Source: Escherichia coli (GTDB lineage: Bacteria > Pseudomonadota > Gammaproteobacteria > Enterobacterales > Enterobacteriaceae). From it: a DNA stretch of 42,047 bases. Positions within the stretch are counted from its first letter, which is position 1; the number at the start of each line of letters is the position of its first letter. The stretch is from the NCBI RefSeq assembly GCF_051903065.1, contig NZ_CP178441.1; one strand, 5' to 3'. Shown in pieces: positions 1,973 through 33,164 of this stretch. A program made the position numbers and the translations under genes. The notes beneath the pieces are model-generated. The model was not told where the DNA came from. It searched no databases and was given only the letters and a program-made list of their open reading frames with translations.

Positions 1973-2562
1973 TGCGTCCTCAACTCTGGGTTATTGCTGG
2001 GCCTAATGGTGCAGGAAAATCTACCCTAGTTAAGCGACATATCCTTGGGAAAATAGAGGTTGTTAACCCTGATGATATTGCGCGGGAACAAGGTATAAGC
2101 AATCGAAAGGCAGGAGAGCAGGCACTTTTTCTGCGCACGGAAAATATCAAAAATAGATGTACTTTCGCTGTAGAAACGACACTCACAGGAATGGGGGAGA
2201 TTAAGTTAATGCAGCTTGCTGCAACTGCAGGTTACAAAATTAATTTAATCTATGTGGGGGTGAAAGATGTAGGAATGTCAGTAGCTCGCGTTAACCAGCG
2301 TGTAAGCCTTGGTGGTCATAATGTGCCTGTTGATGATATTTTCAGACGATACGAGCGTTCTGTAACCAACCTACCTAAAGCTATGGCCGTGGCTGACCGG
2401 GTATGGGTATTTGATAACAGTTATAACAGACGGCGATTACTTTTCCGCACAGAACAAGATAAAACAAAGTTCATTTCTAATGATTTGCCTGATTGGTTTA
2501 AAAAAGTCGCTGGGACAGAGATTGAGCAGGCCAGAATGAAAAAGAAGAAATTAAGTCGTTAG
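1972..2562 (+). CDS. P-loop kinase of zeta-toxin/AAA_33 type (putative toxin)
   Basis: Walker A GPNGAGKST near the N-terminus, followed by a VVNPDD segment and an HNVP...RRYERS segment typical of zeta-like kinases. Translationally coupled to the upstream small ORF. Confidence 0.55.
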   Translation: MRPQLWVIAGPNGAGKSTLVKRHILGKIEVVNPDDIAREQGISNRKAGEQALFLRTENIKNRCTFAVETTLTGMGEIKLMQLAATAGYKINLIYVGVKDVGMSVARVNQRVSLGGHNVPVDDIFRRYERSVTNLPKAMAVADRVWVFDNSYNRRRLLFRTEQDKTKFISNDLPDWFKKVAGTEIEQARMKKKKLSR

Positions 2563-2579
2563 TTAAACGTCCAAGGATA

Positions 2580-2606
2580 AACCGGCTATAAGCCGGTTTT
2601 TTTTTG
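2580..2606 (+). terminator. rho-independent terminator (AACCGGCT-ATA-AGCCGGTT plus T-run)
   Basis: 8-bp perfect stem followed by nine T residues directly after the 1972..2562 stop. Confidence 0.7.
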
Positions 2607-2660
2607 ATAATAGATGAAAAGTGAGTAGTTTTATGTTTCTTTATATCGAAAAAAGTGTAT

Positions 2661-2706
2661 TTTAGCAGCTAAAATTATTGACCTGCATACGTGGTTTAGC
2701 TAAACT
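2661..2706 (+). promoter_or_regulatory. korA-type promoter: OB (2661..2673), -35 TTGACC (2678..2683), KorA operator GTTTAGCTAAAC (2694..2705) overlapping -10 TAAACT
   Basis: Operator sequences and arrangement match the RK2 korA promoter (OA over the -10, OB just upstream of the -35). Confidence 0.7.
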
Positions 2707-2763
2707 TTGTTTGCGGTGTCATTAAGGCGTCTAGTTAAAGGTGTTGAACCGGGAAGTAAATTT

Positions 2764-3108
2764 ATGACGACTGTTAATAATAATGATCCGCATGTTGCCA
2801 AAACGGGCAATGAAAAAAAACGCCTGACTAATGAGGTATTTGCAAGAGTTACCCGAAGCCTGAATGTTGGTAAGCAAACGCTTGATATCGCTTACGGCGT
2901 ACTGGTTGAAGGAAGACCGCAGAAATATTTTGTTGAAACGCTGGATATTTCTCGCGGGGCTGTTTCTCAGGCAGTTAACAGAGTGTGGGATGCCTATAAA
3001 CAAGAAGTACCTGACGGTTTTGTGCGTATTGAAGTAGTGTTACCGGAGCGGCAGGCTTTCATTGTTAAAAAGTGGGCTGACGAGGCAAAACGTAAACAGG
3101 AAGAATAG
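2764..3108 (+). CDS. korA: KorA global repressor (ORF track start 2707 is probably an upstream extension)
   Basis: Strong similarity to recalled RP4 KorA: HTH segment GAVSQAVNRVW and C-terminal VLPERQAFIVKKWADEAKRKQEE. Confidence 0.8.
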   Translation: MTTVNNNDPHVAKTGNEKKRLTNEVFARVTRSLNVGKQTLDIAYGVLVEGRPQKYFVETLDISRGAVSQAVNRVWDAYKQEVPDGFVRIEVVLPERQAFIVKKWADEAKRKQEE

Positions 3109-3110
3109 CG

Positions 3111-3875
3111 ATGGCTATGAAAGTATTGGTTACAGCAAATCAAAAAGGTGGTGTTGGCAAGACTTCCACCCTGGTTCATCTGGCATTTGATTTTTCAGAA
3201 CGAGGCAAGCGGGTTGCTGTAATCGATATGGATACCCAGGGCAACGCCTCTTTTACCCTGAAACAGTTCTCGTCCGGCATTAAAGCGAATGAAATGTGGG
3301 GCGAGATCGAGCCAACTCGCTTTACCCAAATGCCTGAGAGCGGAATTTCTCTCATTGAGTCAGATATTCAACTAGCAAACGTAGAAAAATTAAATCTGCC
3401 GGAAATGGTGAAGCAGTTCCGCCATAACCTGCAGCAGCTGGCGGACAGTGGCTTTGACGTCTGCCTGATTGATACTGCGCCTACGGTTAACAATGCGCTT
3501 ATAGTTGCGCTGGCGAGCGCTGATTTTGTGGTATGCCCTATTGAGCTTGAGGTGTACTCAATTCAGGGTATTAAAAAAATGCTGACCACTTTCACCCAGG
3601 TGAAACGCAAAATGAACAGCAAGCTGGAATTTATTGGTATGGTTCCAAGTAAGGTAGATGGCCGCAATCCTCGCCATGTAAACCACCTGCAGGAGCTGCA
3701 GACGGCCTACCCTACGTTAATGGTTCCTGTGTCTGTCGGGTTGCGAAGCAGCATTGCTGATGCACTGGCTTCACATGTCCCTGTCTGGAAAATCAAGAAG
3801 ACAGCAGCACGTAAAGCCAGCCAGGAAATGAGAGCACTGGCCTGTCATGTTTTTACTAAGATGGAGATTGCATAA
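3111..3875 (+). CDS. incC: IncC / ParA-family partition ATPase
   Basis: Deviant Walker A KGGVGKTS and a ParA-like fold signature. Immediately precedes the ParB homolog, with stop/start overlap. Confidence 0.85.
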   Translation: MAMKVLVTANQKGGVGKTSTLVHLAFDFSERGKRVAVIDMDTQGNASFTLKQFSSGIKANEMWGEIEPTRFTQMPESGISLIESDIQLANVEKLNLPEMVKQFRHNLQQLADSGFDVCLIDTAPTVNNALIVALASADFVVCPIELEVYSIQGIKKMLTTFTQVKRKMNSKLEFIGMVPSKVDGRNPRHVNHLQELQTAYPTLMVPVSVGLRSSIADALASHVPVWKIKKTAARKASQEMRALACHVFTKMEIA

Positions 3876-26803: not shown

Positions 26804-27577
26804 TCAACGTAGTTTGATATTTCCATATACTGCAGCCAGTGCATCAGCTGCAGCCTTGTTATAACGACCCGGTAGTTGCTGTGTGGGCTGCTGATAGTCA
26901 GCTTTTACGACGCTTTCAACCGGTATTTGTTTTACAGAAGCGGAAAAACCAATAAGTTGATTCGGTGTAGTCGGTGTTACTGTTGTTCCGTCATTTTTGG
27001 GCGGTTCTGTAGCGAGTGTGTCGCTTTGTGCAAGGTTAGTAACCAGTGTAATGTTTTTCCCTGCTCTTTCTTCTGGCGTAACTCCAACCGTCGCCTGTTG
27101 AGGCTGTGGAGTAGTCGTTCCTGCAGGTTTCGTTGTGTCAAACGTATTAAAGCGAGCTTCAATCCAGGTCTGCCATTTAGCTGCTTTTCTGATCAGGTCA
27201 GCACGATATACCTTGTTAAATTGAGGCGTTTTTGAATGATAATTTGCTGCTTTTGTCCAGATATCTCCCTTATCATTTTTGATATGGCCGCGTATACGCC
27301 ACGCAGCCAAATCATACGAATAACAGCCTGGCTGTGCTACATCTTCTTCTGTAATGCCGTATTTTTCCAGATCCTTTAAATAAACCGTATTAAACTGCAT
27401 ACGGCCTATATCATATGTGCCGTTTGAGTTACGGTTTTTATTCTCAAGTCCGGGACGACCACCCTCTTTTTCAGCTATGGCTAACATGATGTTAGCCGGA
27501 ACCTGATATTTTATCGCTGCAGTAATTGAGCAAACTACACGTTCAACCTGAGCCGGTGGAATATCTAAATACGGCAT
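26804..27577 (-). CDS. trbN: TrbN / VirB1-like lytic transglycosylase
   Basis: SLT-domain character (…AEKEGG…, …YDIGRMQFN…). Last gene of the trb operon. Confidence 0.7.
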   Translation of the reverse strand: MPYLDIPPAQVERVVCSITAAIKYQVPANIMLAIAEKEGGRPGLENKNRNSNGTYDIGRMQFNTVYLKDLEKYGITEEDVAQPGCYSYDLAAWRIRGHIKNDKGDIWTKAANYHSKTPQFNKVYRADLIRKAAKWQTWIEARFNTFDTTKPAGTTTPQPQQATVGVTPEERAGKNITLVTNLAQSDTLATEPPKNDGTTVTPTTPNQLIGFSASVKQIPVESVVKADYQQPTQQLPGRYNKAAADALAAVYGNIKLR

Positions 27578-27592
27578 ATTATTTCCCTTTTG

Positions 27593-27901
27593 TCAAAAAA
27601 AGCGTAGACGACCAAATTTATTCTGTATTTTATCTACGTAAGCAGGTGAAGCTGATGGGCAATTATTAGTTAGCCATCCTCTTCTTTTTTTCTCTGTTCG
27701 ACTTGCGCTGAATTTTCCATGCTTGAAGCTGATTTGACTGAAATAGTTGTTCACACTCCCCGAACAACCATCCTGGACACTACCTGTGGCAACCAATCCC
27801 CACATGCATAATACGGGTTGGCATGGATCTGCCGCCTTTGTTGGAATGCTGTAAATACTAATAGATAATGCCATCAATGTAACTGATAGATATTTTTTCA
27901 T
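27593..27901 (-). CDS. small secreted Cys-containing protein in the trbM position (ORF track start 27955)
   Basis: Signal peptide MKKYLSVTLMALSISIYSIPTKA from an internal ATG with GAGG RBS. Lies between trbL and trbN. Confidence 0.5.
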   Translation of the reverse strand: MKKYLSVTLMALSISIYSIPTKAADPCQPVLCMWGLVATGSVQDGCSGSVNNYFSQISFKHGKFSASRTEKKRRGWLTNNCPSASPAYVDKIQNKFGRLRFF

Positions 27902-27911
27902 ATTAATAGCC

Positions 27912-29456
27912 TCAGAACTTTGACTTGTTTTTAAATTGTTCGTATTCATCACCACTTTGTGATGTTTGTGTATCTATAGAACCAGTATTTTCTGTTTGAG
28001 TCGTTGTTTGCTCCTCCCCTCCAAGACTGTCGCCGTTGAACTTGTTACTTGTTGTTATGCTCCCGTAGCCAAAAGATTCTTCTGTGTTGTTCGATTGACG
28101 TTCAACAGTTTGCGAACGGATTTGAGAAGCGAGCTTTCCACCTGGAGTTTGTGCAATGATGTCTCTTGCCGCTCTGACTTTTGAGTCATGCTTGGCTGCA
28201 TTGCGTGCAGCCAGGCCGTTAGCCAAACTATTCGCCATATGCGAAGCCATGCGGCCAGCTCGTGAGAATGATGAAGCAAAGCCCTGGCTTCCTCCACTGG
28301 AACTACCTGTACTGTTCTCTGCAGACGAACCACCGGAACCGCCTGATGGTTGTCCTCCAGAAGTATCTACAGAACCGGTATCCTCCCCACTTCCAAATCC
28401 TCCACCTGAACCGCCTTTACTACCAGTACTAGACTCTTCGGCCATCGCTGCTTGTGCCGATTCAAATGCCGCTTTAAGTGCTGATGCACCTCCGGCAGCA
28501 TTTGCAGCACCTGCTGCCGCAGCAGCGCCAGATGCTGCTATTGCGGCTCCTGCTGCAGCAGCAGCCCCAATAATTGCACCGGCACCAAAGCCACCAATGC
28601 CTTGCATTGAAGCACCGCCTACAATACTGCCAACCATAGGAGGAACTTTATTAACAAGAACCAAAAGAACAATTGAGGCTACAAGCATTACAAACATAGA
28701 TTTCATTTGTACTGCGTCATCGCCCATTGCCTGGTAATACTGGTCTATGAAGGATTTTCCAATACCAACAATTAGAACCATTGTGAACAGCTGCAGGGCA
28801 ATTCCTAGAACTGTTTTGAAGTATGTAATGGCAATATCGGAAGTCCAACGAGCCCCCCCAAAACCGAGTAAGAAAATACCGCCGTAACTTAAAATCCAGC
28901 CGGTAATCAGCAGAAGAAGCATATTCACACCGACAAGTGCTAATACGCATAGAATAACTCCGGCTAAAATCAAGCCGACAGTGGAGTCTGCCGGGGACCA
29001 AATAGAAGACTGGTCAACGACTCTTGATACGATATCAAACCCTATATCTACAATGCCCGAAGGCGAGAATGATTTTGATAAACCAGAAGCATTAGCCGCG
29101 AGTTGACGTAATGAATCCTGAATATCTACCGATATTGCCGGGCCGTTTTTTAGCAGATAGAAGAAAAAACCTAACACAGCAAAAAAACGAACTACTTCCG
29201 CAAGAGCTGCCGATAATCCTTCGCCCTGCATTGCCATCATTGCGAATGTCCATACCATTGAAATTACCGCTAATGACCAAAATATCCAGGTCGCGTAATT
29301 TTGTATGGTTCCAGCCCAGGTGCTGGCAACATTTGCAAAGCGCTTAAGGATATCATCAAGTAACCCAGCACTATCTAATGGCGCAGCCTGTGCCTGTGTG
29401 CTGATTAATATCAGCAACACAGATAAGCAAGGATAAATTAGATGCCTGAATTTCAT
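27912..29456 (-). CDS. trbL: TrbL / VirB6-like polytopic inner-membrane protein with Gly/Ser-rich C-terminal tail (ORF track start 29507)
   Basis: Signal peptide from MKFRHLIYPC, multiple TM helices, and a low-complexity G/S/A-rich C-terminus. Confidence 0.7.
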   Translation of the reverse strand: MKFRHLIYPCLSVLLILISTQAQAAPLDSAGLLDDILKRFANVASTWAGTIQNYATWIFWSLAVISMVWTFAMMAMQGEGLSAALAEVVRFFAVLGFFFYLLKNGPAISVDIQDSLRQLAANASGLSKSFSPSGIVDIGFDIVSRVVDQSSIWSPADSTVGLILAGVILCVLALVGVNMLLLLITGWILSYGGIFLLGFGGARWTSDIAITYFKTVLGIALQLFTMVLIVGIGKSFIDQYYQAMGDDAVQMKSMFVMLVASIVLLVLVNKVPPMVGSIVGGASMQGIGGFGAGAIIGAAAAAGAAIAASGAAAAAGAANAAGGASALKAAFESAQAAMAEESSTGSKGGSGGGFGSGEDTGSVDTSGGQPSGGSGGSSAENSTGSSSGGSQGFASSFSRAGRMASHMANSLANGLAARNAAKHDSKVRAARDIIAQTPGGKLASQIRSQTVERQSNNTEESFGYGSITTSNKFNGDSLGGEEQTTTQTENTGSIDTQTSQSGDEYEQFKNKSKF

Positions 29457-29460
29457 TCTG

Positions 29461-29634
29461 TCACCATTTCTTTTCGGGGCTTTTTGTAAATTCGCCTGAT
29501 TTACCACATTGCGTTTTTTCCTGGTCAGTCATCTTTGATACTGACTTATTGCAATCAACCTGGTTGGGATCGGTTTTTGGGTCGCAAGCAGTGATAAAAA
29601 ACGCCGACAGAATGAGAGGAATGATATATTTCAT
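29461..29634 (-). CDS. trbK: TrbK-like entry-exclusion lipoprotein (57 aa; not in the ORF track because under 60 aa)
   Basis: Manual translation gives MKYIIPLILSAFFITAC... with a lipobox-like signal. Position between trbJ and trbL as in RP4. Confidence 0.55.
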   Translation of the reverse strand: MKYIIPLILSAFFITACDPKTDPNQVDCNKSVSKMTDQEKTQCGKSGEFTKSPEKKW

Positions 29635-29646
29635 AGGAGTACCACC

Positions 29647-30417
29647 TTACCAAGATTGAGCGGGGCTTTTGGTATAAGTCCCTGCCCTAAAAGTTTCTGA
29701 TGCAGCCGCTTGCTGGGCCTCTTTATCGGCCTGAGCCTGCGCCAGTGTAGTTGCAGCGTTTTGCTGGGCAACTAGAAGCGAGCGGATTTGCAGTAACTGG
29801 TTTGTTTGCGCACTGGCAAGCTGGTTAGCGGCCTGAATAGCTTCCATTTGCCCCTGTGCTCCAGTTACTTGAGTTTGTAAGTCAGCAAGGTTATCTGCAT
29901 CTCTTTGCAGTGTTTCTTGCTGTTCATCGAGAACCTTAAAAACGGCGTCATTGGCCTTTTTACGAGCCTCAGAGTTATTTTGTTCAGCTTTACGTAGTGC
30001 GCTAATTTCATCTGCAGTGCATTCAACATTACTGTTAAAGCATGGCGATGAACGGTAGTAATTAATGTCCTGATAACGTTTTAGATATGAGTCAAGACTC
30101 CCGGCCTGATTTTTGTAGTAATTAAGAGTGTCCTGTGCCTGCAATAATTTGTTGATAGTTGAATTGGCCTGATCCCATATATAGGCCGCAGGTGCGACTG
30201 TGTTTCTCAGCATGTTTTCATATTGTTGCAACTGCGTCTGATACTGTTGGATCTGTTTAGCCACAGCCTGAACGTTATTGACAGCGCTGATTGTGGTCTG
30301 CACCACATTAGTAGCATCAAAAACAGGAATACCAGCTTTCGCAGGTAGGGCCATGATTGACGCCACGAAGGAAGCTAGTAACGCTTTTTTAGCGGCTAAA
30401 ACGAAACGTGTATTCAT
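29647..30417 (-). CDS. trbJ: TrbJ / VirB5-like protein
   Basis: Signal peptide and a Q/A-rich coiled-coil body. Synteny. Confidence 0.7.
   Translation of the reverse strand: MNTRFVLAAKKALLASFVASIMALPAKAGIPVFDATNVVQTTISAVNNVQAVAKQIQQYQTQLQQYENMLRNTVAPAAYIWDQANSTINKLLQAQDTLNYYKNQAGSLDSYLKRYQDINYYRSSPCFNSNVECTADEISALRKAEQNNSEARKKANDAVFKVLDEQQETLQRDADNLADLQTQVTGAQGQMEAIQAANQLASAQTNQLLQIRSLLVAQQNAATTLAQAQADKEAQQAAASETFRAGTYTKSPAQSW
30388..30400. promoter_or_regulatory. KorB-type operator TTTAGCGGCTAAA inside the 5' end of trbJ
   Basis: Perfect OB consensus 15-29 nt downstream of the trbJ start codon. Confidence 0.55.
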
Positions 30418-30429
30418 CGTCTTCCCCTA

Positions 30430-31824
30430 TTAGTAATCAAAGGCTTGGTAAGGTTTTGTGAATGCTAAGTCTTTAGTAACCATTATATTGAAGCGATAAC
30501 CCGGTCGAATTTCGAGCGTAGGTGAGATATTCAGGTTTTTTTGTACAACCTGCGCAATAGCTTGGCCGAATACCTGACCCAGCGCTGCACTCATTTCACT
30601 GCTCATGTTCGGAGCTTGATTCGAGTTGTTATTGTTTTGGTTACGATCCTGAGAATAAGCAATTGTCGCGGTGATACCAGATAGCAGTAAGGCATTGCCA
30701 AAAATGCGGAAGTAATGGTTATTAACCTGATCTCGGAAACCAGAGTAACCGGCCATGTCTGCTCCCGGCATGGAACCTAAATCAAGAGCTTTTCCATCTG
30801 GGAACACTAGACGTTGCCAGGCAATCATGACCCCTTCCTGACCATAGGTAATATCACTTGAATATGTACCTATCACACGAGTTCCATGAGGAATAAGAAG
30901 GTATTTGCCTGTTGCTGAGTCATAAACGTCCTGAGCAACCTGACCAATAATCTGCCCTGGAAGATCCGAGTTAATGCCACTAATCATGACGCCAGGAATG
31001 ACCCAACCTGCACGAAGTTCGTATTGGCTATGTGGTGCTGAAATTTGTTCATCCAGTAACCACCTGTCACCCTGCCCTTTCTTACCGAACTGGTTGATGT
31101 CATTATGAGAAACGGATACGCCACCCACTGATGCCAATTGCATACCTGTATCGCTATTGCTATCTGTGACGCCATTCATTGAAGCCCGGATTCTCTGAAC
31201 CTGAGCGTCGTAACTTGCAGTTGCATCGCCAGCGTTGTTCTGTTCCATCTGACGGCGAACGTTAGCAATTTCTTGCAGCATTTCATCGCGGGTTTGTGGT
31301 GTATTACCTGTAGTACTCGAGCGTCCTAGTTGGTTAGGCAAATTGACTTCTGTTTTTGCTTTTACAGCTTCAATAAAATCACGCATTTTATTGCGGCGAA
31401 TCTGGTCTGCTTCTGGATCGTTTGACCGTGACGTTACCGATTGTGGCGGAACGGGGGGCTGATCTGGATCAGCTACTGGAACAATGGGGACCGATGTATA
31501 ATTCGTGCTCTGTTGGGTTTTATTATCCTGTGTCGGAATTTCTGACGGTGCTGTTGGGGCTTCAATAATGCCGGAGGTACTTCCTCCCATAACGTCCATT
31601 GCCATTGCCGAGGTATCTCGGCTGCTCCCACGCTGAATAGTTGTTTCTGCCGTATCTGACATGCCTTGGTTGGCTCGTTTATTGGCAATGTACGCCACGA
31701 GAATGCAGAATAAAGCGAAGCCACCAATAGCAATGTACATTGGTCTTTTATTAACGCGGCGTACACCAGTTTTGTTTGCGACGCCAGGAGACGCGTCGGG
31801 GGACATTTTATCTTGTTCTGCCAT
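30430..31824 (-). CDS. trbI: TrbI / VirB10
   Basis: N-terminal TM segment, Pro-rich linker, conserved VirB10 C-terminal domain. Synteny. Confidence 0.8.
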   Translation of the reverse strand: MAEQDKMSPDASPGVANKTGVRRVNKRPMYIAIGGFALFCILVAYIANKRANQGMSDTAETTIQRGSSRDTSAMAMDVMGGSTSGIIEAPTAPSEIPTQDNKTQQSTNYTSVPIVPVADPDQPPVPPQSVTSRSNDPEADQIRRNKMRDFIEAVKAKTEVNLPNQLGRSSTTGNTPQTRDEMLQEIANVRRQMEQNNAGDATASYDAQVQRIRASMNGVTDSNSDTGMQLASVGGVSVSHNDINQFGKKGQGDRWLLDEQISAPHSQYELRAGWVIPGVMISGINSDLPGQIIGQVAQDVYDSATGKYLLIPHGTRVIGTYSSDITYGQEGVMIAWQRLVFPDGKALDLGSMPGADMAGYSGFRDQVNNHYFRIFGNALLLSGITATIAYSQDRNQNNNNSNQAPNMSSEMSAALGQVFGQAIAQVVQKNLNISPTLEIRPGYRFNIMVTKDLAFTKPYQAFDY

Positions 31825-31827
31825 CTT

Positions 31828-32271
31828 TTATTCCTCGCGAGTCCATGGGCCAGCCGGGTATGCCTTGCCGTCTGTTGCCAAAACGAATCCCCGGCTTAAT
31901 TTGACGTCGCCCACAAATGCTGTGACTTGGTAGAGATTGGGAACGATAGTGTTCACAACATAACCAAGAGGTGTCCCTGAGGTGCTCTGAGGTTTGCCGT
32001 CTTTCGTGAACTCGATGACAGCATAACCGCGTGAACGCAAACGCTGAACAAGTGCTGAACCGAAAGGATCTTTAGCAGGTTGTTTCATCGTGAATGTTGT
32101 ACGTCCAGGAGGATACAGCGTTGCCAGATTAACAACGGTGTTATCAGCCATGCTTGCAGAGGCAAACATGTTAGCATTCGAATAGTTTCCATAACTCGAA
32201 GATACACAGCCAGTCGTTAACAGGCTTGCGATTAGCACCATAACGGAGGTTAATTTCATTGCTGCTTTCAT
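31828..32271 (-). CDS. trbH: TrbH lipoprotein (VirB7-like position)
   Basis: Lipoprotein signal ...LLTTGC. Position between trbG and trbI. Confidence 0.6.
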   Translation of the reverse strand: MKAAMKLTSVMVLIASLLTTGCVSSSYGNYSNANMFASASMADNTVVNLATLYPPGRTTFTMKQPAKDPFGSALVQRLRSRGYAVIEFTKDGKPQSTSGTPLGYVVNTIVPNLYQVTAFVGDVKLSRGFVLATDGKAYPAGPWTREE

Positions 32272-32273
32272 TA

Positions 32274-33164
32274 TTATCCCCTTGTGATAGTCACTTTTTC
32301 TTGGCTCGAACCGACACCAATAACCAGATATGCCTTGTCAAAAAGACCATCGACAATAGTTCTATCTCCTTGGGTTCGCAGATTAACCATTTGTGTTTCA
32401 TCTTTAGAGAACAGTCCGCCTTCTTTACGCACGACCAGAAGGATTGGGGTTTCGCCAGAAGAAATTGTTTTAGGGAATTGGATAATAGTTTTAACCCCAT
32501 CGTTATATACCCGAACGGGTTTCCAACTGGCAGAACCGCTTATTTTATAGTTGAAATCCAGATTTCCCAGGTATTCACCAGTTTGAGGAATTGTGTTATC
32601 ACGCAATTGTTTGGCTTCACGCGTCCGAATTGCATCCCATTTAGCCTTGGCATCTTCCGGGTAGGTAAAAGACACATATGGCATAAATTTGGTGCGGCTG
32701 GTTTTAACACGCATACGATACGTACGACGGTCAGTTGTCACTACTAGGGAAGTATCAAGTCCCACATCAAGTGGCTTTATAATTAGATGCAATTGCTGTG
32801 TGGCACCAGAACCAGTGATTGAAGGAGATACCGTTACGCGTGGATCACCAACATCAATGTTGTTGACGTTTTCTCCGGGTTGTAAAGCGATGTCACACAG
32901 TTGCAGTACAGCACAGACAATTTGTGTCTGCCCTGTTGTATATACGTAACTGATAGCACCGTCTGGTCCAGCAAATGGTTTACTTGTTACGCTACCAGCA
33001 CCAGTCTGCCATTTTTGGCCTATTCCGATGGCGGCTTGTTCCTGCGGTGTGAGGGATGGTTCATTATTAGAGAAATATTGATCAGCCAGCGGATCACTTC
33101 CAGGAGCCGCATTAGCCAGAAGCGGTAAGCTCAAAATTAACGCTGAGATAATTGACTTTTTCAT
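32274..33164 (-). CDS. trbG: TrbG / VirB9
   Basis: Signal peptide MKKSIISALILSLPLLANA. Synteny. Confidence 0.8.
   Translation of the reverse strand: MKKSIISALILSLPLLANAAPGSDPLADQYFSNNEPSLTPQEQAAIGIGQKWQTGAGSVTSKPFAGPDGAISYVYTTGQTQIVCAVLQLCDIALQPGENVNNIDVGDPRVTVSPSITGSGATQQLHLIIKPLDVGLDTSLVVTTDRRTYRMRVKTSRTKFMPYVSFTYPEDAKAKWDAIRTREAKQLRDNTIPQTGEYLGNLDFNYKISGSASWKPVRVYNDGVKTIIQFPKTISSGETPILLVVRKEGGLFSKDETQMVNLRTQGDRTIVDGLFDKAYLVIGVGSSQEKVTITRG

What the first reader, a model, noticed from the sequence alone, without database searches (positions are those of the whole stretch)
27593..29634. Small trb-embedded genes: a 57-aa TrbK-like lipoprotein and a short secreted Cys-rich protein in the trbM slot
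The TrbK-like ORF (29461..29634) is below the ORF-track cutoff and could be missed by annotation. Its lipobox and position suggest entry exclusion. The trbM-position protein (27593..27901) is much shorter than RP4 TrbM as I recall it, so it may be a different protein.
Basis: partly seen in the sequence, partly recalled or inferred. Interest (0 to 1): 0.35.

Follow-up and report, generated by a model that had tools for sequence, protein, structure and literature searches.

The report
TrbK exclusion lipoprotein and short TrbM
The two small genes are real but ordinary parts of a plasmid's DNA-transfer operon (a known entry-exclusion lipoprotein and a short adhesin-like TrbM/KikA protein), though the exclusion protein's tail proves to be a copy of the tail of the neighbouring pilus-tip protein TrbJ, which hints at how exclusion works.

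Summary
Both ORFs exist exactly where stated, on the minus strand of an IncP-like trb operon (trbJ-trbK-trbL-[102 aa]-trbN). The window is a ~42 kb conjugative enterobacterial plasmid, 100% identical over the 4 kb compared to pCFSA664-2.

The 57-aa ORF is a true TrbK. It passes the NCBIfam TrbK cut-off and has a lipobox, Asp+2 and the family's C-terminal motif. RefSeq already annotates it as trbK, so it is not missed.

The 102-aa protein is not a different protein. It is a full-length short member of the TrbM/KikA/MpfK(Pep) family, with a signal peptide and the four hallmark cysteines. About 100 aa is this family's usual size. On its own it falls below Pfam's threshold, and RefSeq calls it hypothetical.

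A by-product is more interesting. The last 11-15 residues of TrbK resemble the last residues of the cognate TrbJ (VirB5). The two tails co-vary across 24 of 26 systems examined (IncP, Ti, Neisseria, IncN, IncW and others; 0 of 200,000 permutations match). In the R388 structure this VirB5 tail docks on VirB6. I found no description of this in the papers I could read. It suggests that TrbK excludes by mimicking the TrbJ tail.

The parts
29461..29634 (-). trbK: 57-aa entry-exclusion lipoprotein precursor (signal peptide aa 1-16, lipobox ITAC, Cys17, Asp18; 41-aa mature protein)
   Evidence: ORF. TIGR04359 TrbK_RP4 26.1 bits, above cut-off 23. RefSeq WP_019842051.1 'entry exclusion lipoprotein TrbK'. 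Alignment with RP4-type and R751 TrbK.
29464..29496 (-). TrbK C-terminal tail G-E-F-T-K-S-P-E-K-K-W: the TrbK family signature and a look-alike of the TrbJ tail
   Evidence: 86 of the 120 listed homologues (of 141 found) end in W, within a G.F[KT][PK]S[PE].K.W pattern. Resembles the cognate TrbJ tail.
29647..30417 (-). trbJ (VirB5 homologue), 256 aa
   Evidence: NF010452 TrbJ 382 bits; annotation.
29650..29682 (-). TrbJ C-terminal tail G-T-Y-T-K-S-P-A-Q-S-W, which the TrbK tail copies
   Evidence: Alignment A3. Tail statistics. The homologous VirB5 tail contacts VirB6 in R388 (PMC9259494 Suppl. Table 4).
27912..29456 (-). trbL (VirB6 homologue), 514 aa. Membrane domain, then a Gly/Ala/Ser-rich region and a hydrophilic C-tail.
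   Evidence: TIGR02783 TrbL_P 309 bits. Start codon as in RefSeq. hhalign to R388 TrwI.
27593..27901 (-). Short TrbM/KikA/Pep-family gene: 102-aa precursor (leader aa 1-23; mature 79 aa with Cys27, 32, 46, 81)
   Evidence: Pfam TrbM 15.4 bits, below GA 21. 61 of 72 homologues hit PF07424. hhalign 98.2% to RP4-type TrbM. Cys32 and Cys46 invariant, Cys27 and Cys81 in at least 90% of 72 sequences. AlphaFold2 pLDDT 88.
26804..27577 (-). trbN (lytic transglycosylase), the downstream neighbour that bounds the trbM slot
   Evidence: NF010463 TrbN 290 bits.
28560..29750 (-). Mosaic block 'E': last ~35 codons of trbJ + trbK + first ~300 codons of trbL, exchanged as one unit between related plasmids
   Evidence: 98-100% identical to pKMi029_2 (L002) but 38-70% to pHS102707 (L009), while the backbone is about 90% to both.
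27595..28130 (-). Mosaic block 'A': last ~75 codons of trbL + the whole kikA-like gene, a divergent allele specific to this plasmid lineage
   Evidence: About 50% nucleotide identity and 48% amino-acid identity to L002 and L009, which are 98-99% identical to each other here. Flanks are 88-98%.

Best explanation
The region carries two accessory genes of an IncP-like (P-type, MPF_T) mating-pair-formation operon.

(1) trbK encodes a 41-residue mature lipoprotein. Asp+2 should keep it in the inner membrane, facing the periplasm. In a cell that already holds the plasmid it blocks entry of the same or a related plasmid (entry exclusion).

Proposed mechanism (inferred): the active part is its C-terminal peptide (..GEFTKSPEKKW). 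This peptide is a copy of the C-terminal tail of the plasmid's own TrbJ (..GTYTKSPAQSW). In the homologous R388 machine the VirB5 tail is the segment that docks between VirB6 subunits. TrbK would therefore act as a membrane-tethered decoy of the TrbJ tail. It would occupy or compete for the tail's partner on the incoming donor apparatus, most likely TrbL/VirB6, and stall the transfer channel.

(2) The 102-aa gene encodes a Sec-exported, disulfide-stabilised, mostly helical domain of the TrbM/KikA/MpfK (pKM101 Pep) family in its common short form. By homology it is a donor-side, surface or periplasmic adhesin-like accessory factor that raises mating efficiency and conjugation-associated killing. 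It is not a core channel part.

What is shown: gene identity, family membership, tail resemblance and tail co-variation. What is inferred: exclusion activity, the decoy mechanism and its target, and the adhesin role.

My confidence is about 0.9 for the gene identities and about 0.45-0.5 for the decoy mechanism.
For: TrbK identity:
- HMM score above cut-off; the identical protein is annotated TrbK in RefSeq.
- Lipobox, Cys and Asp+2 are conserved with RP4 and R751.
- The family-wide C-terminal motif is present.

Function of relatives:
- RP4 trbK and trbJ are the only tra2 genes that protect a recipient (PMC11045733).
- Ti TrbJ and TrbK exclude synergistically (Cho 2009, as cited in PMC3907764).
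- The TrbK C-terminus is essential in pKPC_UVA01, and reportedly in RP4 (PMC8923210).

Tail mimicry:
- In 26 TrbJ/TrbK (VirB5/Eex) pairs the cognate tail scores sum to 1186, against 545 +/- 46 for shuffled pairings. None of 200,000 permutations reaches the observed sum, and the cognate partner ranks first in 15 of 26.
- Very different tails match within each system:
  - pTiC58: DIRGGQTMEPRW / DVRGGQEMKPRW.
  - Sphingomonas: KMGTKPTPVGTYQN / KMKTKPTPIGNYQN.
  - pA56: GLDKPTNRAKSKGY / GMDQPTDRTKSKEY.
  - Neisseria: DILKHPYRR / DVLKRPYKR (all three).
  - IncN: FVFGTGGDVTASPSIN / FVFGKKDGEINSPKI.
  - R388: NQGMPTIQ / GDGMPKIR.
- 43 of 101 identical tail residues use different codons, so the likeness is kept at the protein level.

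Structure:
- R388 VirB5 residues 207-228 of a 229-aa chain make the VirB5-VirB6 contacts and co-evolving pairs with VirB6 residues 124-147.
- The TrbJ tail, trbK and the TrbL membrane domain are exchanged as one block between related plasmids.

102-aa protein: plus family function in PMC13311141.
Against: - No experiment exists on this plasmid.
- The RP4 pair itself shows only the generic motif: the cognate ranks 11th of 26, because all classical IncP tails look alike.
- Two systems show no tail similarity: Variovorax and the pKPC_UVA01-like plasmid.
- Co-inheritance of the TrbJ tail, trbK and trbL can be explained by simple physical linkage.
- A decoy that binds donor TrbL needs that site to be reachable from the recipient's periplasm, which has not been shown for P-type systems.
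- A mimic could instead bind neighbouring TrbJ subunits or the pilin.
- The TrbL-TrwI alignment used to place the docking segment is weak (hhalign probability 50%).
- The 102-aa protein is below the Pfam gathering score on its own. The localisation of TrbM-like proteins in PMC13311141 is computational; only pKM101 Pep is described there as previously shown to localise to the cell surface.
Confidence: 0.75

Rival explanations
1. The TrbJ/TrbK tail likeness is a by-product of ancestry (trbK arose by duplicating the 3' end of trbJ) and of occasional gene conversion between neighbouring genes. It would have no role in exclusion; TrbK would act through another part or simply as a membrane plug.
For: The genes are adjacent. 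In Verminephrobacter 13 tail residues are identical. 58 of 101 identical tail residues use the same codon.
Against: 43 of 101 identical residues use different codons. The likeness persists in lineages as far apart as Ti, Neisseria, Sphingomonas, IncN and IncW while the rest of TrbK is unalignable. The tail is the most conserved part of the TrbK family. C-terminal truncations abolish exclusion in a relative.
Confidence: 0.2
2. TrbK's main role is in the donor. By mimicking the TrbJ tail it would regulate stalk assembly (TrbJ docking on TrbL) in its own cell, and exclusion would be a side effect.
For: The tail corresponds to the VirB6-docking segment of VirB5. In pKPC_UVA01 exclusion requires trbK in the donor as well.
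Against: Deleting trbK does not impair killing by RP4 or transfer of pKPC_UVA01, and PMC2848598 calls trbK the only non-essential trb gene. Per PMC11045733, trbK on a cloning vector in the recipient protects it.
Confidence: 0.15
3. The 102-aa gene is a truncated remnant of a long trbM, or an unrelated small secreted protein that happens to sit in the slot.
For: It is half the length of RP4 and R751 TrbM. It scores below the Pfam TrbM threshold. RefSeq names it 'hypothetical protein'.
Against: The ORF fills the slot exactly and has its own ribosome-binding site. Nearly all of the 150 listed representative clusters (of 157 found) are about 100 aa and align end to end. The four Cys are conserved. 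hhalign gives 98.2%. The confident AlphaFold2 model forms a complete compact domain. 29 plasmids carry it at >=99% identity.
Confidence: 0.05
4. The 57-aa ORF is a chance ORF that is not translated.
For: It is short, and ORFs of this size are common by chance (many are listed).
Against: HMM score above cut-off. 141 homologues with conserved lipobox and tail. Tight spacing between trbJ and trbL, typical of the operon. Conserved position in all P-type systems checked except one.
Confidence: 0.02

Closest known systems
RP4/RK2 TrbK (IncP-1alpha entry-exclusion lipoprotein, 69 aa) and R751 TrbK (75 aa)
   Same: Same slot between trbJ and trbL. Lipobox, Cys and Asp+2. C-terminal G.F..S[PE].K.W-COOH motif. 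Matches the same NCBIfam model.
   Different: Shorter (57 aa, 41 mature). Only 32% identical, with a shorter and different middle part. Tail 'TKSP' rather than 'KPS[EP]'. tblastn from this protein reaches only 88 plasmids of its own clade.
EexN-type lipoproteins of IncN (pKM101 Eex) and IncW (R388 Eex), and Ti-plasmid TrbK
   Same: Small exclusion proteins encoded between virB5 and virB6 homologues. Each ends in a look-alike of its own VirB5 tail. Weak NF033894 hit (15.7 bits).
   Different: Below the EexN cut-off of 33 bits. Ti TrbK has a transmembrane anchor instead of a lipobox. The tails are unrelated in sequence between systems.
F TraS / SXT Eex acting on donor TraG (a VirB6-like protein)
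   Same: An inner-membrane protein of the recipient that recognises a VirB6-family protein of the donor (PMC12624023). This is the same logic as the proposed TrbK-TrbL contact.
   Different: No sequence relationship. For TrbK the target is only inferred.
Tpf (XAC2611, DUF4189) of the Xanthomonas X-T4SS
   Same: A recipient-side periplasmic protein that blocks an incoming T4SS through the VirB5 module (bioRxiv 10.64898/2026.05.09.723464).
   Different: Tpf is a 164-aa globular protein that binds VirB5. TrbK is a short lipoprotein that resembles VirB5's tail, so it should bind VirB5's partner.
RP4 TrbM (199 aa) and R751 TrbM (195 aa)
   Same: Same slot (trbL-trbM-trbN). Sec leader. Four conserved Cys. 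Homologous over TrbM residues 2-104.
   Different: Lacks the C-terminal ~95 residues. 34% and 29% identical. Fails the equivalog model NF010468 (16 bits against 259).
IncN KikA (104 aa; called pKM101 Pep in PMC13311141) and R388 KikA
   Same: Same length class (~100 aa). Collinear over the full length, 29% identity, E 1e-12. The family is reported to be an adhesin-like enhancer of conjugation and killing.
   Different: In IncN the gene lies outside the T4SS operon, in the kikA/korB region. Here it sits in the trbM slot. It is 48% identical to the 'KikA' allele of sister plasmids.

Membership tests
TrbK entry-exclusion lipoprotein (NCBIfam TIGR04359) | HMM score at or above the curated cut-off | tested here: met
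   26.1 bits against cut-off 23, E 6e-6, covering residues 7-57.
TrbK entry-exclusion lipoprotein (NCBIfam TIGR04359) | Gene lies between trbJ and trbL in a P-type trb operon | tested here: met
   trbJ 29647-30417, trbK 29461-29634, trbL 27912-29456, all on the minus strand.
TrbK entry-exclusion lipoprotein (NCBIfam TIGR04359) | Lipoprotein signal peptide with lipobox Cys, and Asp at +2 (inner-membrane retention) | tested here: met
   ..FFITA|C17-D18. Cys and Asp are invariant with RP4-type and R751 TrbK. The Asp+2 rule is as discussed in PMC8923210. No dedicated predictor was run.
TrbK entry-exclusion lipoprotein (NCBIfam TIGR04359) | Conserved C-terminal motif G-x-[FY]-x-x-S-[PE]-x-K-x-W at the extreme C-terminus | tested here: met
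   ..GEFTKSPEKKW. 86 of 120 family members end in W within this motif.
TrbK entry-exclusion lipoprotein (NCBIfam TIGR04359) | Excludes the cognate plasmid when expressed in the recipient | not testable with these tools
   Needs a mating assay.
EexN family lipoprotein (NF033894) | HMM score at or above the cut-off | tested here: not met
   15.7 bits against cut-off 33.
TrbM/KikA/MpfK family (Pfam PF07424) | Pfam gathering score | tested here: not met
   15.4 bits against GA 21, matching model positions 10-58 only. However, 61 of 72 of its homologues hit PF07424, and profile-profile probability to RP4-type TrbM is 98.2%.
TrbM/KikA/MpfK family (Pfam PF07424) | Four conserved cysteines (the two disulfides called the family hallmark in PMC13311141) | tested here: met
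   C27, C32, C46 and C81 align with the four Cys of RP4-type and R751 TrbM. C32 and C46 are invariant, and C27 and C81 are present in at least 90% of 72 sequences. Disulfide formation itself was not tested.
TrbM/KikA/MpfK family (Pfam PF07424) | N-terminal Sec signal peptide, no transmembrane segment | tested here: inconclusive
   The sequence shows a positively charged start, a hydrophobic core and T-K-A|A. Low pLDDT for residues 1-25 and then a compact domain. No signal-peptide predictor was available.
TrbM/KikA/MpfK family (Pfam PF07424) | Helical globular TrbM-like domain | tested here: met
   AlphaFold2 model: mean pLDDT 88, above 95 over the mature part, four helices plus a short hairpin. 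No solved structural neighbour (Foldseek PDB best E 3.9).
TrbM/KikA/MpfK family (Pfam PF07424) | Enhances conjugation or killing by its T4SS | not testable with these tools
   Needs deletion and complementation.
RP4-type TrbM equivalog (NF010468, ~194 aa) | Full-length match at or above the cut-off | tested here: not met
   16 bits against cut-off 259. Only model positions 36-84 match, and the protein lacks the C-terminal half.

The most novel reading that the evidence does not exclude
Entry-exclusion proteins encoded between virB5 and virB6 homologues (TrbK, EexN-type Eex, Ti TrbK) work by molecular mimicry. Each carries, on a membrane anchor, a copy of the C-terminal tail of its own VirB5/TrbJ. 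That tail is the segment that docks on VirB6/TrbL in the T4SS stalk. Exclusion specificity would then be set by this co-evolving tail and its VirB6 groove. This would explain three things: why TrbJ and TrbK each exclude, why the TrbK C-terminus is essential, and why the TrbJ tail, trbK and trbL are swapped as one cassette.
Probability: 0.45. Interest if true: 0.75.

Novelty: new member of a known kind. Interest (0 to 1): 0.45.

Why it matters
The finding as written is routine annotation. One gene is already named in RefSeq. The other can be renamed from 'hypothetical' to a short TrbM/KikA-family protein.

Its value lies in what the comparison exposed. The molecular target of IncP TrbK has been unknown since 1996. 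A 2025 review still lists only TraS-TraG as a mapped entry-exclusion contact (PMC12624023), and a 2026 preprint calls its Tpf-VirB5 contact the first direct one shown (10.64898/2026.05.09.723464). A co-varying TrbJ-tail copy on TrbK gives a simple hypothesis that tail swaps and peptide binding can test. It also points to an 11-15-residue peptide as the specificity determinant.

This plasmid group spreads among E. coli, Salmonella and Klebsiella. Exclusion type and the variable adhesin-like allele probably help decide which relatives can co-infect a cell and how well the plasmids transfer.

Tried and rejected
- **Frameshifted or truncated long trbM:** rejected. There is no spare DNA in the slot, and the family is mostly about 100 aa.
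- **'Lipoprotein' label on the sister-plasmid allele:** rejected for the window protein. Its first Cys follows A-D-P after an AXA-type cleavage site, which is not a lipobox.
- **Word-index protein search with the 102-aa protein:** only 3 hits. The exhaustive HMMER search and tblastn were needed.
- **Foldseek against PDB for the 102-aa model:** nothing (best E 3.9). The afdb50 library was unavailable.
- **AlphaFold2 of TrbJ alone:** poor (pLDDT 60, tail below 50), so it says nothing about where the tail packs.
- **Primary papers on RP4 and Ti exclusion** (Haase 1996, PMC178567; Cho 2009, PMC2687180): not held. I could not check whether they mention the tail likeness. Lyras 1994 was not looked up. 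Five full-text searches and the related reviews showed no such description.
- **pKPC_UVA01-like 'TrbJ/TrbK' pair and a Variovorax pair:** no tail likeness. Both were kept in the statistics as negatives.
- **Costly genome-wide locus scan for more pairs:** considered and not run. The 26 pairs already give 0 of 200,000 permutations.
Full report
**What the window is.** The 4 kb around the finding is 100% identical to five deposited ~41-43 kb conjugative plasmids, including pCFSA664-2 of Salmonella. It is 92-93% identical to larger plasmids that MOB-suite types as IncP (MOBP relaxase, MPF_T). In all, 111 plasmid records from E. coli, Klebsiella, Salmonella and Enterobacter match. The minus strand carries a P-type trb operon. 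HMM assignments are clear for the neighbours:
- trbG 32274-33164
- trbH 31828-32271
- trbI 30430-31824
- trbJ 29647-30417
- the 57-aa ORF 29461-29634
- trbL 27912-29456
- the 102-aa ORF 27593-27901
- trbN 26804-27577

The 57-aa product begins MKYIIPLILSAFFITA|CD: a short charged start, a hydrophobic core, lipobox I-T-A-C, and Asp at +2. The gene sits 12 nt after the trbJ stop and 4 nt before the trbL ATG.

The 102-aa product begins MKKYLSVTLMALSISIYSIPTKA|ADPC and has four cysteines in its 79-residue mature part. Its ATG follows a GAGG by 8 nt. The ORF occupies the whole 334-bp space between trbL and trbN, so no remnant of a longer gene can be hidden there.

**The 57-aa ORF is TrbK, and it is already annotated.** It scores 26.1 bits on NCBIfam TIGR04359 (entry exclusion lipoprotein TrbK, cut-off 23). 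The identical protein, WP_019842051.1, is named 'entry exclusion lipoprotein TrbK' in the RefSeq records. It is 32% identical to the RP4-type (pBS228) and R751 TrbK proteins, with the lipobox Cys, Asp+2 and the terminal Trp invariant.

A profile search found 141 relatives. Their best-conserved part is the extreme C-terminus, G-x-F-K-P-S-[PE]-x-K-x-W, and 86 of the 120 listed end in W. The window protein has this motif as GEFTKSPEKKW. So the family assignment holds, and the fear that annotation would miss the gene does not apply here. It does apply elsewhere: a chromosomal element (L007) has an uncalled trbK ORF between trbJ and trbL.

**The 102-aa ORF is a short TrbM/KikA/Pep-family protein.**
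- On its own it is below Pfam's TrbM threshold (15.4 against 21 bits), and RefSeq calls it hypothetical.
- tblastn finds relatives in 2,941 plasmids, mostly named 'TrbM/KikA/MpfK family conjugal transfer protein' and about 100 aa long, in 33-kb, 60-kb and IncN plasmids.
- An exhaustive HMMER search gives 157 representative clusters. Nearly all are 95-125 aa and align from about residue 5 to 100.
- 61 of 72 of these hit PF07424.
- In the 72-sequence alignment Cys32, Cys46, Thr69, Arg73 and Gly97 are invariant, and Cys27 and Cys81 are present in at least 90%.
- The family profile matches RP4-type TrbM residues 2-104 with 98.2% probability. The four Cys align with the four Cys of the RP4-type sequence in my alignment. 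PMC13311141 numbers these C38, C43, C53 and C82, describes them as forming disulfide bonds, and reports that mutating them impairs function.
- The protein is collinear with IncN KikA (104 aa; 29% identity, E 1e-12).
- AlphaFold2 gives a confident compact domain (pLDDT 88, four helices and a hairpin) with no solved structural neighbour.

So it is not 'a different protein'. It is the common short architecture of the family, whereas classical IncP-1 plasmids carry a long form with an extra C-terminal half. Published work reports that RP4 TrbM, R751 TrbM and pKM101 Pep enhance conjugation. Those three and R388 KikA also enhance conjugation-associated killing, and the paper describes Pep as a previously reported cell-surface adhesin (PMC13311141 and PMC11045733). 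That is the function I assign by homology.

**A local mosaic.** Against sister plasmid pKMi029_2 (L002) the backbone genes are 84-91% identical at the DNA level, but the 102-aa gene is only 57% (48% at the protein level). Sliding windows against L002 and pHS102707 (L009) show two blocks with sharp edges.
- *Block E (about 29750-28560):* the last ~35 codons of trbJ, trbK, and the first ~300 codons of trbL. It is 98-100% identical to L002 but only 38-70% to L009.
- *Block A (about 28130-27595):* the last ~75 codons of trbL and the whole 102-aa gene. It is about 50% identical to both, although L002 and L009 are 98-99% identical to each other there.

So an exclusion cassette and an adhesin-like cassette are shuffled independently within this plasmid group. 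Physical linkage alone could produce such blocks, so I treat the functional reading as a lead only.

**The TrbK tail copies the TrbJ tail.** While aligning the neighbours I saw that TrbJ and TrbK end alike:
- Window: ..GTYTKSPAQSW and ..GEFTKSPEKKW.
- RP4 type: ..GSYRASPSKTW and ..GGFKPSEKKEW.
- R751..GSYRASPARTW and ..GDFKPSPKREW.

I then collected pairs from the same contig or plasmid, chosen for diversity and not for outcome. Wherever the TrbJ tail departs from the classical form, the small protein encoded between trbJ and trbL departs in the same way:

| System | TrbJ/VirB5 tail | TrbK/Eex tail |
|---|---|---|
| Verminephrobacter | RRGSFKPSTGRTW | RRGSFKPSTGRTW |
| E. coli contig L005 | SPKNWLELTR | KPMNWLELADPK.. 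|
| L006 | NITKSTPKTWTFN | NIKRSEPKKWSFG.. |
| L008 | SYSHGTNKSW | HFSSGENKKW |
| ICE L007 | NTPSPKRIW | NKPSPKREW |
| pA56 | GLDKPTNRAKSKGY | GMDQPTDRTKSKEY |
| pTE_C_2 | MTKGTYNMPTPQTF | MTKGQYRAAEPQTF |
| Neisseria | DILKHPYRR | DVLKRPYKR |
| Sphingomonas | KMGTKPTPVGTYQN | KMKTKPTPIGNYQN |
| Acinetobacter pAB3 | MRTWTFRPSPADNY | MRQWEFKPSPKDDY |
| pTiC58 | DIRGGQTMEPRW | DVRGGQEMKPRW |
| IncN TraC/Eex | FVFGTGGDVTASPSIN | FVFGKKDGEINSPKI |
| R388 TrwJ/Eex | NQGMPTIQ | GDGMPKIR |

Statistics over 26 pairs:
- The summed local score of cognate tails is 1186, against 545 +/- 46 for shuffled pairings. None of 200,000 shuffles reaches it.
- The cognate partner is the best match in 15 of 26. The lower ranks fall within the classical IncP class, where all tails look alike.
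- An internal TrbJ 20-mer scores 12.9 on average against the cognate TrbK tail, compared with 45.6 for the true tail.
- Two pairs (Variovorax and a pKPC_UVA01-like plasmid) show no likeness. One Pasteurella plasmid has no gene in the slot.

Of 101 identical tail residues, 43 use different codons. The likeness is therefore maintained on the protein and is not just recent DNA copying.

**What the tail does in a solved machine.** In the R388 cryo-EM structure a VirB5 pentamer sits on a VirB6 pentamer, each VirB5 binding between two VirB6 subunits (PMC9259494). The paper's Supplementary Table 4 lists the contacting and co-evolving VirB5-VirB6 pairs. Nearly all involve VirB5 residues 207-228 and VirB6 residues 124-147, at distances of 2.3-8 angstroms. 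The deposited TrwJ chain is 229 residues long. So the contact element is the C-terminal tail, which is the segment that the R388 and IncN Eex proteins copy.

A weak profile alignment (probability 50%) maps VirB6 124-147 to window TrbL ~140-163, which lies inside block E.

**Proposed mechanism.** TrbK is a recipient-side, inner-membrane-tethered decoy of the TrbJ tail. It would compete for the tail's partner on the incoming apparatus, most plausibly the TrbL/VirB6 groove. This fits several published results:
- TrbJ and TrbK each protect a recipient in RP4, and they exclude together in Ti.
- The TrbK C-terminus is essential.
- Exclusion is specific to the cognate system.
- F and SXT exclusion proteins recognise the VirB6-like TraG of the donor.
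- A recipient periplasmic protein blocks the Xanthomonas T4SS through VirB5.

Shown here: the likeness, its co-variation, and the block structure. Inferred: binding, the identity of the partner, and how a donor site becomes reachable from the recipient periplasm. I put about 0.45-0.5 on the decoy mechanism.

I found no description of the tail likeness in the papers I could search or read. The key older papers (Haase 1996, Cho 2009) could not be read, and Lyras 1994 was not looked up, so prior notice cannot be excluded.

**Verdict.** The finding itself is correct in observation and ordinary in content: a known, already annotated trbK, and a divergent short member of a known accessory family. 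I rate it 'new member of a known kind'. Interest is moderate only because the comparison yields a testable mechanism for a long-open question.

Noticed in passing
window 29464-29496 and 29650-29682 (-); loci L003-L024: The C-terminal tails of TrbJ (VirB5) and of the exclusion protein encoded next to it are alike, and they co-vary across IncP, Ti, Neisseria, Sphingomonas, Acinetobacter, IncN and IncW systems. In R388 this VirB5 tail is the VirB6-docking segment.
   Followed up: yes
window 28560-29750 and 27595-28130: There are two independently exchanged mosaic blocks with sharp edges inside genes. One holds the TrbJ tail, trbK and the TrbL membrane domain. The other holds the TrbL C-tail and the kikA-like gene. 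The latter allele is only 48% identical to that of sister plasmids, whose flanks are about 90% identical.
   Followed up: partly
proteins P0006 (2817 aa), P0031 (1569 aa), P0105 (1175 aa), P0066 (476 aa): A few very long proteins contain 5-17 matched stretches to the 102-aa TrbM-like protein, that is, apparent tandem arrays of the Cys-containing domain. Their origin and meaning are unknown.
   Followed up: no
L010 (pTE_C_2) 2281-2454 and 2451-2666: Two tandem genes are both annotated trbK. The second ends with the TrbJ-like tail (..MTKGQYRAAEPQTF). The first stops just before it (..LVEACMTR).
   Followed up: no
L007 3789-3980 (chromosomal element, GCA_007285885.1): A trbK-like lipoprotein ORF between trbJ and trbL was not called by the gene finder of that assembly. 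Small trbK genes are therefore missed in some records, though not in this plasmid's.
   Followed up: partly
L012 (Pasteurella multocida plasmid) 2235-2247: trbJ and trbL are only 11 nt apart with no trbK gene. This would be a natural test case for a P-type system without the exclusion gene.
   Followed up: no
window 28156-28737 (+): A 193-aa ORF lies antisense to the Gly/Ala/Ser-rich part of trbL. It is most likely an artefact of the biased composition, not a gene.
   Followed up: no
L016 (pKPC_UVA01-like plasmid) 2270-3540: The experimentally studied 'TrbK' of pKPC_UVA01-type plasmids (152 aa here) shows no tail likeness to its 'TrbJ'. This may relate to its unusual need for trbK in the donor and its cross-exclusion of IncP and IncN plasmids (PMC8923210).
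   Followed up: partly
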